Shown: positions 19,480 to 22,400 of the stretch, piece after piece
How the letters are laid out: the number at the start of each line of letters is the position of its first letter
How positions within the stretch are numbered: the stretch's first letter is position 1
Assembly (NCBI RefSeq): GCF_045037415.1
Contig: NZ_CP173438.1
Reading direction: 5' to 3' (one strand)
DNA: 64,000 bases
Source: Escherichia coli
Lineage (GTDB): Bacteria > Pseudomonadota > Gammaproteobacteria > Enterobacterales > Enterobacteriaceae
Position numbers: made by a program

Positions 19480-22400
19480 TAGTTTGTACACCGTCCGGCA
19501 CTCAATCGCCAAAAGAAAAAAGCCAGCAGATAATCACTGCTGGCGTGGCGATTAACACCAATACTCAGTCACACATGATGTCCGCAAATCAGTAGTCAGA
19601 ATGACTCCCCTCCCATTGCATCAGTTCTTCAAGCATGGTTAATCGTTGTGGGACGCTTAACCAACGCAACCAGCACAACTTCGCTGTCGCGGTAAAATAG
19701 TGCTGATAAAACTGACGCATGGGGCACCTCCTTGCTTCATCGTTAGGAATTATTGACTTAATATAGGGAAAATAAAATTGCTGTCTTTTGCGCAGGAGTT
19801 CCCCTTTTATGCCATCTGCTCGTCTGCAACAACAGTTCATCCGCCTGTGGCAATGCTGCGAGGGTAAATCTCAGGAGACCACGCTCAACGAACTGGCAGC
19901 GTTACTGAGTTGCTCGCGTCGTCATATGCGCACCCTGCTCAACACCATGCAGGATCGCGGCTGGCTGACGTGGGAAGCGGAAGTCGGGCGCGGTAAACGC
20001 TCGCGTCTGACATTCCTCTATACCGGGCTGGCGCTTCAGCAACAGCGAGCGGAAGACCTGCTGGAGCAGGATCGTATCGACCAACTAGTGCAGTTGGTTG
20101 GCGACAAAGCGACTGTGCGGCAAATGCTGGTTTCTCATCTGGGCCGCAGCTTCCGCCAGGGGCGGCACATCCTGCGCGTGCTCTACTATCGTCCGTTGCG
20201 TAATCTGCTACCTGGCAGCGCATTGCGCCGTTCTGAAACCCATATCGCCCGGCAAATCTTCAGTTCGCTAACGCGCATAAATGAGGAAAATGGGGAACTG
20301 GAAGCAGACATCGCACACCACTGGCAGCAAATATCACCGCTTCACTGGCGTTTCTTTTTGCGTCCAGGAGTCCATTTTCACCATGGTCGTGAACTGGAAA
20401 TGGACGATGTGATCGCCTCTTTAAAACGAATCAATACGCTTCCGCTCTATTCGCATATTGCTGACATTGTGTCGCCGACGCCCTGGACGCTGGATATCCA
20501 TCTCACGCAACCGGACCGCTGGTTGCCGTTACTGCTGGGGCAAGTTCCGGCAATGATCCTGCCGCGCGAATGGGAAACCCTCAGTAACTTTGCCAGCCAT
20601 CCCATCGGCACCGGTCCGTATGCGGTGATCCGCAACAGCACCAATCAACTGAAAATTCAGGCATTCGATGACTTCTTCGGTTACCGGGCATTAATCGACG
20701 AAGTTAACGTCTGGGTTCTAACGGAAATTGCCGACGAGCCAGCCGGAGGGCTGATGCTGAAAGGGCCGCAGGGCGAGGAACAAGAGATTGAAAGCCGCCT
20801 GGAGGAAGGTTGCTATTATTTACTGTTCGACAACCGCACCCACCGCGGGGCGAATCAGCAAGTCAGGGACTGGGTAAGCTATGTGCTTTCTCCGACGAAT
20901 CTGGTCTATTTCGCCGAGGAACAATACCAGCAACTCTGGTTCCCGGCTTATGGACTGCTCCCCCGCTGGCACCATGCCCGCCCGACACATTGCGAAAAAC
21001 CCGCCGGGCTGGAACATCTCACCCTGACCTTTTATCAGGATCATATTGAACATCGAGTGATTGCCGGGATCATGCAGCAGATTCTGGCGAGTCACCAGGT
21101 CACGCTGGAAATCAAAGAGATCAGCTACGATCAGTGGCATGAAGGAGAGATCGAGAGCGATATCTGGCTTAACAGCGCCAACTTTACGCTGCCGCTGGAT
21201 TTTTCGCTGTTCGCGCACTTGTGCGAGGTGCCGCTACTCCAACACTGTATTCCGATCGACTGGCAAGCCGACGCCGCCCGCTGGCGCAATGGCGAAATGA
21301 ACCTGGCGAACTGGTGCCAGCAACTGGTCGCCAGCAAAGCAATGGTGCCACTTATCCACCACTGGCTGATCATTCAGGGGCAACGCAGTATGCGCGGCCT
21401 GCGCATGAACACCCTCGGCTGGTTCGATTTTAAATCAGCGTGGTTTGCACCACCGGATCCATGATTGCTGGTTGATAACAAAATCACTACACTAACGCCG
21501 TTCTCAACGGGGTGCCACGCAGCCGCGTGCGCTGAGAAAATACCCGTCGAACCTGATCCGGATAACGCCGGCGAAGGGATTTGAGGCTCCTTCTCAAGTC
21601 CTTTGCCACTCTTTTGTGAGGTGCAAAGTGTTAAAAAAATGTCTTCCCCTGCTGTTGCTGTGCACAGCGCCTGTTTTCGCTAAACCTGTTCTGACTGTTT
21701 ATACCTACGATTCCTTTGCCGCTGACTGGGGACCTGGTCCGGTAGTCAAAAAAGCCTTTGAAGCAGACTGTAATTGCGAACTGAAACTGGTGGCGCTGGA
21801 AGATGGCGTTTCGCTGCTCAACCGTCTACGGATGGAAGGCAAAAACAGCAAAGCCGATGTGGTGCTGGGGCTGGATAACAACCTGCTGGACGCCGCCAGC
21901 AAAACCGGGTTGTTTGCCAAAAGCGGCGTCGCGACAGAGGCTGTAAACGTTCCCGGCGGCTGGAAAAATGACACCTTTGTGCCGTTTGACTATGGCTATT
22001 TCGCCTTCGTCTATGACAAGAACAAACTGAAAAATCCGCCGCAAAGCCTGAAAGAACTGGTTGAGAGCGATCAAAACTGGCGGGTGATTTATGAAGATCC
22101 GCGTACCAGTACACCAGGTCTGGGTCTGTTGCTATGGATGCAAAAAGTCTATGGCGATAACGCCCCGCAAGCCTGGCAGAAACTGGCGAAGAAAACTGTC
22201 ACGGTCACTAAAGGCTGGAGCGAAGCCTACGGCCTGTTTTTAAAAGGCGAAAGCGATCTGGTACTGAGTTACACCACCTCTCCGGCTTATCACATTCTCG
22301 AAGAGAAGAAAGATAACTACGCCGCCGCGAACTTCAGCGAAGGTCACTATCTGCAGGTGGAAGTTGCCGCCCGCACCGCTGCCAGCAAGCAGCCAGAGCT

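What the first reader, a model, noticed from the sequence alone, without database searches (positions are those of the whole stretch)
19515..19741. Dual-function sRNA locus SgrS/SgrT divergent from sgrR
The minus strand carries an intact SgrS with a 43-codon SgrT ORF, the ptsG-pairing region (caccaatactcagtcacaca on the plus strand) and an intrinsic terminator. The first 21 nt differ from the K-12 sequence I recall at one position (aggagg versus aggggg), just upstream of the sgrT start codon.
Basis: partly seen in the sequence, partly recalled or inferred. Interest (0 to 1): 0.2.

Follow-up and report, generated by a model that had tools for sequence, protein, structure and literature searches.

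The report
Ordinary E. coli SgrS/SgrT locus
This is the well-known E. coli sugar-stress small RNA SgrS, with its embedded small protein SgrT, in the common "CFT073-type" form that lacks the neighbouring setA gene; it is intact and ordinary.

Summary
Confirmed and already known. Window 19515-19741 (minus strand) matches Rfam SgrS (RF00534) end to end at 226 bits (threshold 37). It has an intact 43-codon sgrT (Pfam SgrT 50 bits, threshold 27), the ptsG-pairing seed, a small hairpin plus an 8-bp terminator with a U-tail, and a divergent sgrR 67 nt upstream.

AGGAGG with ATG is exact in 3,283 of 5,399 complete E. coli genomes; the K-12 form is exact in 1,417. The K-12 G completes a GGGG/CCCC hairpin that published work says inhibits sgrT translation. 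That hairpin is lost here.

They change the last 12 SgrT residues and the sequences flanking the seed. This is the CFT073-type allele described in 2009 (88% identical to K-12). About 2,160 genomes (40%) carry it, and in them setA is missing between sgrS and leuD. Other Escherichia species share this form. The 26-nt seed block is identical in both alleles and in 12 other species.

Nothing here is novel.

The parts
19515..19741 (-). sgrS small RNA gene, 227 nt (CFT073-type allele)
   Evidence: Rfam RF00534 at 226.2 bits (gathering 37), full length. 100% identical to many E. coli chromosomes.
19589..19720 (-). sgrT coding sequence, 43 codons plus stop, ATG start intact
   Evidence: Translation. 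Pfam PF15894 SgrT at 50 bits (cut-off 27). RefSeq annotates the identical sequence as sgrT, WP_001248768.1.
19727..19732 (-). AGGAGG Shine-Dalgarno of sgrT (SgrS nt 10-15). Nt 13 (window 19729) is A here and G in K-12.
   Evidence: Alignment. The local hairpin is -6.7 kcal/mol here versus -12.4 in K-12.
19555..19580 (-). Invariant 26-nt block (SgrS nt 162-187) containing the mRNA-pairing seed.
   Evidence: Identical in the window, K-12 and 12 other species' sequences. It pairs with the ptsG ribosome-binding site at -28.4 kcal/mol; 0 of 2,000 shuffles did as well.
19546..19560 (-). Small hairpin UGGUG-UUAAU-CGCCA just upstream of the terminator (part of the Hfq-binding module)
   Evidence: Fold. 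The equivalent K-12 hairpin is GGUG/CACC; the 3' arm differs only by a compatible U.G to U-A change. Role in Hfq binding is from PMC4021124.
19515..19544 (-). Intrinsic terminator: GCCAGCAG-UGAUUAU-CUGCUGGC followed by UUUUUUC
   Evidence: Terminator scan and fold. The stem is invariant across genera.
19742..19808 (.). 67-nt sgrR-sgrS intergenic region carrying the SgrR-dependent sgrS promoter
   Evidence: Identical to K-12 except one base (window 19792, position -51 relative to sgrS +1). The region is reported as conserved and required for sgrS activation (PMC2760817).
19809..21464 (+). sgrR, the transcriptional activator of sgrS (551 aa)
   Evidence: NCBIfam NF010149 SgrR equivalog at 1120 bits (cut-off 476). 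Pfam SgrR_N plus SBP_bac_5.
19483..19514 (.). 32-nt spacer between the leuD stop and the sgrS 3' end. This is where K-12 carries about 1.26 kb including setA.
   Evidence: blastn of the window against K-12. No SetA match anywhere in the window by tblastn.

Best explanation
This is the chromosomal sgrS/sgrT gene of an E. coli strain, in the CFT073-type (setA-less) haplotype.

How it works, from established knowledge of the family: when sugar phosphates accumulate, SgrR, encoded divergently, activates the sgrS promoter. The 227-nt RNA binds Hfq through its 3' hairpins and U-tail. Its single-stranded seed (nt ~167-187) pairs with the ribosome-binding site of ptsG mRNA and of other targets, which blocks translation and triggers decay. 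The 5' part is translated into the 43-aa SgrT, which inhibits the PtsG transporter.

In this allele the sgrT ribosome-binding site is AGGAGG and lacks the K-12 hairpin that sequesters it. SgrT is therefore probably made more efficiently than in K-12.

Shown here: identity of the gene, integrity of all its parts, seed complementarity to ptsG, loss of the K-12 hairpin in silico, and allele frequencies. Inferred from the literature and not tested here: induction by SgrR, Hfq dependence, SgrT activity, and higher SgrT output.
For: - Full-length Rfam SgrS hit at 226 bits.
- Pfam SgrT hit and an intact ATG.
- SgrR equivalog encoded divergently, 67 nt away, with the intergenic region 66/67 identical to K-12.
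- The seed pairs with the ptsG leader, including its AGGAG Shine-Dalgarno, at -28.4 kcal/mol. Shuffles gave -11.7 +/- 3.0, and 0 of 2,000 reached the observed value.
- The ptsG leader is >=99% identical in 5,375 of 5,424 E. coli genomes.
- Terminator and upstream hairpin are predicted.
- The sequence is 100% identical to annotated sgrT loci in many E. coli chromosomes.
- The 5' hairpin is -12.4 kcal/mol in K-12 and -6.7 here. Published work says the K-12 stem-loop sequesters the ribosome-binding site and lowers SgrT production (PMC2760817; PMC4021124).
Against: - Nothing in the sequence argues against the identification.
- Expression, Hfq binding and SgrT activity of this particular allele were not and cannot be tested here.
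- The last 12 SgrT residues differ from K-12 at 8 positions, and Pfam matches only residues 3-37, so C-terminal function is unverified.
- In the full-length minimum-free-energy fold the sgrT start region is paired in a long-range helix in both alleles. Loss of the small hairpin therefore need not translate into much more SgrT.
- The ptsG leader used for pairing came from K-12 DH1, not from this strain's own genome.
Confidence: 0.97

Rival explanations
1. The RNA is a working riboregulator, but sgrT in this allele is a non-functional or untranslated remnant, as proposed for O157:H7.
For: O157:H7-type genomes of the same 3' haplotype have ATT in place of ATG; 312 of 5,399 genomes carry that form. 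The SgrT C-terminus differs from the studied K-12 protein. The start codon region is paired in the full-length fold.
Against: Here the ATG is intact, preceded by a consensus AGGAGG at 6-nt spacing. The ORF is exactly 43 codons, and residues 1-31 are identical to K-12 SgrT. Pfam SgrT is above threshold. The same C-terminal type is kept in E. albertii, E. whittamii and Escherichia sp. E1V33.
Confidence: 0.05
2. The allele is a functionally shifted variant. With no setA downstream, an unmasked sgrT ribosome-binding site and altered seed flanks, strains with this haplotype rely more on SgrT and have a somewhat different target set from K-12.
For: setA is absent. The K-12 inhibitory hairpin is absent. 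Differences lie directly beside the seed at nt 159-161 and 188-196. The review states that SetA contributes to stress recovery in K-12.
Against: The 26-nt seed block, the terminator stem and the ptsG pairing are unchanged. No experiment on this allele was found. Differences outside the seed may be neutral.
Confidence: 0.25
3. The match is a chance or degenerate SgrS-like sequence, not a real gene.
For: None.
Against: E = 1.6e-63 with full-length model coverage. Conserved synteny with sgrR and leuD. 100% identity to annotated loci.
Confidence: 0

Closest known systems
E. coli CFT073-type SgrS/SgrT (Horler & Vanderpool 2009, PMC2760817)
   Same: That paper reports 88% identity to K-12 SgrS. The window gives 88.6-89.5% to K-12-type genomes and >=95% to about 2,160 genomes, including O157:H7 at 99.1%. 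It has an intact sgrT and no K-12 stem-loop before sgrT.
   Different: No difference was identified. CFT073 itself was not fetched, so the assignment rests on the published identity figures and on the O157:H7 relationship (the paper gives 99% between CFT073 and O157).
E. coli K-12 SgrS/SgrT (the experimentally studied reference)
   Same: Same length (227 nt). Nt 1-115 are identical except nt 13. Same 26-nt seed block, same terminator stem, same promoter region (66/67), and SgrT residues 1-31 are identical.
   Different: 27 differing alignment columns. A13 instead of G13 removes the GGGG/CCCC hairpin. The SgrT tail is EELMQWEGSHSDY versus EGLMQWDDRNSES. The U-tail is U6C versus U8. K-12 has setA downstream and its own leuD-proximal hairpin; the window has neither.
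E. coli O157:H7 SgrS
   Same: Same 3' haplotype and no setA; 99.1% identical.
   Different: O157:H7 has ATT in place of the sgrT ATG start codon. The window has ATG.
SgrS of other Escherichia species (E. albertii, E. whittamii, Escherichia sp. E1V33)
   Same: The 3' half is 95-96% identical to the window. They have AGGAGG and no setA between sgrS and leuD.
   Different: The 5' half is 92-97% identical, which is species-level divergence.

Membership tests
SgrS RNA (Rfam RF00534) | Scores above the family's covariance-model gathering threshold over the full model | tested here: met
   226.2 bits versus 37; model positions 1-232; not truncated.
SgrS RNA (Rfam RF00534) | Transcribed divergently from sgrR, with the conserved intergenic promoter region | tested here: met
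   The SgrR equivalog starts 67 nt upstream on the opposite strand. The intergenic region is 66/67 identical to K-12.
SgrS RNA (Rfam RF00534) | Near-invariant 3' seed complementary to the ptsG mRNA ribosome-binding site | tested here: met
   The seed block is identical across 14 sequences. The duplex with the ptsG leader is -28.4 kcal/mol; 0 of 2,000 shuffles did as well.
SgrS RNA (Rfam RF00534) | Rho-independent terminator with poly-U tail, preceded by a small hairpin (Hfq-binding module) | tested here: met
   In silico only: 5-bp hairpin plus 8-bp terminator plus U6C, -20.7 kcal/mol, z = -5.6.
SgrS RNA (Rfam RF00534) | Induced by glucose-phosphate stress through SgrR, and Hfq-dependent repression of ptsG | not testable with these tools
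   Requires Northern blot, RNA-seq or genetics in a strain with this allele.
SgrT (Pfam PF15894) | Small ORF in the SgrS 5' region that matches the SgrT profile and has a usable start codon and ribosome-binding site | tested here: met
   50 bits versus 27, residues 3-37. ATG with AGGAGG 6 nt upstream. NCBIfam returned no family for this 43-aa protein.
SgrT (Pfam PF15894) | The protein inhibits PtsG glucose transport | not testable with these tools
   Known for K-12, Salmonella, Klebsiella and Erwinia SgrT (PMC4021124). Not tested for this C-terminal variant.

The most novel reading that the evidence does not exclude
In this setA-less haplotype, leuD and sgrS converge only 32 nt apart, and leuD has no terminator-like site of its own on the plus strand. 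K-12 does have a GC-rich hairpin with a short U-tract after leuD. Leu-operon read-through would then produce RNA perfectly antisense to the SgrS 3' end, including its seed. That would couple leucine-operon transcription to SgrS activity in about 40% of E. coli. Independently, the unmasked sgrT ribosome-binding site and the absence of SetA may shift these strains towards SgrT-based control.
Probability: 0.1. Interest if true: 0.35.

Novelty: already known. Interest (0 to 1): 0.08.

Why it matters
It matters little as a discovery. SgrS/SgrT is one of the best-studied dual-function small RNAs, and this allele class was described in 2009.

The useful by-product is a reminder that the K-12 reference is atypical in three ways. 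Its inhibitory hairpin before sgrT is in a minority of genomes (26% carry the exact K-12 5' sequence). Its sgrS 3' half differs by about a quarter of positions from the form shared by other Escherichia species. It carries setA, which about 40% of complete E. coli genomes lack at this site. Conclusions about SgrT levels and SetA's role drawn from K-12 may not transfer to extraintestinal pathogenic and O157-type strains.

Tried and rejected
- RNA duplex prediction with full-length SgrS against 130 nt of ptsG leader gave over-extended, meaningless duplexes no better than shuffles. I replaced it with a test restricted to seed versus ribosome-binding site.
- The promoter scan's AAGACA-16-TATATT hit (19787-19760) lies too far from the SgrS 5' end to be the mapped promoter, and it also appears in K-12. 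I did not use it; promoter identity rests on the 66/67 match to K-12.
- I tried to decide whether the K-12 haplotype (setA plus a divergent sgrS 3' half) is an import or an ancestral retention. Outgroup genera almost all have setA, but other Escherichia species lack it and share the window's 3' half. K-12 setA is only about 79% identical in nucleotides to the best sampled outgroup. The leuD flank is uninformative, apart from K-12's unique last codon. The direction remains unresolved.
- Sun & Vanderpool 2011 (PMC3019967) is not held in the library.
- No paper in the library contains setA, sgrS and phylogroup together.
- Covariation in the terminator cannot be assessed because the stem is invariant.

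Full report
**1. Observation**

The Rfam scan of the whole window places SgrS (RF00534) at exactly 19515-19741 on the minus strand. It matches the full model 1-232 at 226.2 bits against a gathering score of 37, with E = 1.6e-63.

- The minus strand reads GATGAAGCAAGGAGGTGCCCCATG....
- The ORF from the ATG at 19720 to the stop at 19589 has 43 codons and encodes MRQFYQHYFTATAKLCWLRWLSVPQRLTMLEELMQWEGSHSDY. It matches Pfam SgrT at 50 bits against a cut-off of 27.
- The terminator is GCCAGCAG-TGATTAT-CTGCTGGC followed by TTTTTTC, at 19544-19515.
- sgrR starts at 19809 on the plus strand, 67 nt from the SgrS 5' end. It is the SgrR equivalog: NCBIfam 1120 bits against a cut-off of 476, plus Pfam SgrR_N and SBP_bac_5.

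**2. Where the window comes from**

The segment is E. coli chromosome, in the reverse orientation relative to the K-12 map. The order is leu leader and leuABCD (plus strand, ending at 19482), sgrS (minus), sgrR (plus), the TPP riboswitch and thiBPQ. The 1.3 kb around sgrS is 100% identical to many E. coli chromosomes.

**3. Comparison with K-12**

Aligned with K-12 strain DH1, the 227-nt RNA differs in 27 alignment columns. One is nt 13 (A here, G in K-12). The other 26 all lie between nt 116 and 227.

The 3'-half differences have four effects:

- They change 8 of the last 12 SgrT residues (EELMQWEGSHSDY versus EGLMQWDDRNSES).
- They change the segment between the sgrT stop and the seed.
- They change the small hairpin before the terminator (UGGUG/CGCCA versus GGUG/CACC).
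- They change the terminator loop and tail (U6C versus U8).

Within this divergent stretch, a 26-nt block (nt 162-187, CAUCAUGUGUGACUGAGUAUUGGUGU) is untouched. It is also identical in E. albertii, E. whittamii, Escherichia sp. E1V33, two Salmonella subspecies and five Citrobacter species.

**4. The nt-13 difference**

Horler & Vanderpool (PMC2760817) reported that a small stem-loop immediately before sgrT is present in only 3 of 15 E. coli strains, including K-12. They also reported that it sequesters the ribosome-binding site and inhibits sgrT translation. The 2014 review repeats this (PMC4021124).

Folding the first 30 nt gives a GGGG/CCCC hairpin at -12.4 kcal/mol for K-12 and only -6.7 kcal/mol, without that stem, for the window.

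Among 5,399 complete E. coli genomes with sgrS, the exact matches to the first 70 nt are:

| 5' form | Genomes |
|---|---|
| Window form (A13, ATG) | 3,283 |
| K-12 form (G13) | 1,417 |
| O157:H7 form (A13, ATT start) | 312 |

AGGAGG is therefore the normal state and K-12 is the exception. Unlike O157:H7, the window keeps the ATG.

**5. The 3' haplotype and setA**

Across 5,426 genomes, identity to the window's sgrS is bimodal. 2,158 genomes are >=95% identical and 3,241 are 80-90% identical, the latter being K-12-like. The contiguous leuD-sgrS-sgrR arrangement occurs in 2,160 genomes; in the rest the match is split in two.

In K-12, 1,256 nt including setA lie where the window has 34 nt. No SetA match exists anywhere in the window.

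A 100-nt identity profile of the window against K-12 shows a background of about 96-98%. A narrow trough of 76-77% sits at 19400-19630, that is, the end of leuD, the spacer, and sgrS from about nt 116 to its 3' end.

This matches the published description of the CFT073 and O157 alleles as 88% identical to K-12.

**6. Outgroups**

A scan of species-representative genomes with the seed pattern gave 47 loci, and SgrS was delimited in 12 of them with Rfam.

- The window's 3' half is 95-96% identical to E. albertii, E. whittamii, Escherichia sp. E1V33 and a GTDB species representative deposited as E. coli (L017). The K-12 3' half is only 75-78% identical to those.
- These Escherichia genomes also lack setA. 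Nearly all sampled Citrobacter, Salmonella (arizonae and diarizonae), Klebsiella, Raoultella, Enterobacter and related genomes have setA next to sgrS.
- The K-12 type is shared at 99-100% by Escherichia sp. MOD1-EC7003, which also has setA.
- K-12 setA is only about 79% identical in nucleotides to the best outgroup, so no recent donor was sampled.

I could not resolve whether the K-12 haplotype is a retained ancestral form or a re-acquisition. What can be said is that the window carries the form typical of the genus Escherichia.

**7. Mechanism**

The SgrS segment nt 162-190 pairs with the ptsG leader (-40 to +10, taken from K-12 DH1). The duplex uses SgrS nt 167-189 and ptsG -30 to -8, including the AGGAG Shine-Dalgarno, at -28.4 kcal/mol. 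Shuffled seeds gave -11.7 +/- 3.0, with a best value of -25.7, and 0 of 2,000 reached the observed energy. The ptsG leader is >=99% identical in 5,375 of 5,424 genomes.

The 3' end folds into the small hairpin plus terminator that the literature identifies as the Hfq-binding module.

The rest comes from the published SgrS literature and was not tested here. This covers SgrR activation under glucose-phosphate stress, Hfq-dependent repression of ptsG and other targets, and inhibition of PtsG by SgrT. The inference that this allele makes more SgrT than K-12 rests on the lost hairpin. It is tempered by the long-range helix that pairs the start region in full-length folds of both alleles.

**8. Opposite strand**

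With setA absent, leuD and sgrS converge 32 nt apart. K-12 has a hairpin, GCCCGGUCAAAUGACCGGGC followed by UUUCC, just after leuD. The window has no plus-strand terminator-like site between 19300 and 19900, only the sgrS terminator read backwards without a U-tract. Leu-operon read-through antisense to SgrS is conceivable but wholly untested.

**9. Verdict**

The finding is a correct identification of a well-known gene in a previously described allele. It is not novel and deserves a low score.

Noticed in passing
window 19483-19514 (junction) and 19400-19630 (divergent block): setA is absent between sgrS and leuD; K-12 has 1,256 nt here. The absence is linked to a roughly 230-nt block only 76-77% identical to K-12, against a 96-98% background. 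About 2,160 of 5,426 complete E. coli genomes share this arrangement, as do E. albertii, E. whittamii and Escherichia sp. E1V33. Most other enteric genera have setA next to sgrS.
   Followed up: partly
window 19470-19570, plus strand: There is no terminator-like site of its own after leuD in this haplotype. K-12 has a GC-rich hairpin plus UUU after leuD. Leu-operon read-through would be antisense to the SgrS 3' end and seed.
   Followed up: partly
L003 622-753 (E. coli O157:H7 AC-3): O157:H7-type genomes (312 of 5,399) have ATT in place of the sgrT start codon. RefSeq still annotates an sgrT CDS there with the same protein accession (WP_001248768.1) as the ATG alleles.
   Followed up: partly
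L001 778-2433 (E. coli K-12 DH1): sgrR is annotated as a pseudogene with an internal stop in the DH1 record, so this K-12 derivative may lack the SgrS activator.
   Followed up: no
window 20900-21300 and 21900-21999: The 3' end of sgrR (81-91%) and a patch of thiB (83%) are much more divergent from K-12 than the 96-98% background. This suggests further recombination patches.
   Followed up: no
window 14609-14757, 21498-21597, 42737-42829: Other Rfam hits above threshold: the leucine operon leader, the TPP riboswitch upstream of thiB, and naRNA4 (CssrE, a nucleoid-associated non-coding RNA).
   Followed up: no
L012, L015, L047: The 22-nt seed pattern also matched contigs labelled Veillonella MAG, Phormidium tenue and a Woesearchaeota MAG. 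About two chance hits are expected for this pattern. The gut MAG hit could instead be enteric contamination.
   Followed up: no
L001 3985-3987 versus window 19477-19479: K-12 LeuD ends in ...FMN (last codon AAT). The window and all 12 other genomes examined end in ...FMR. This places one edge of the setA-linked block at the last codon of leuD.
   Followed up: partly
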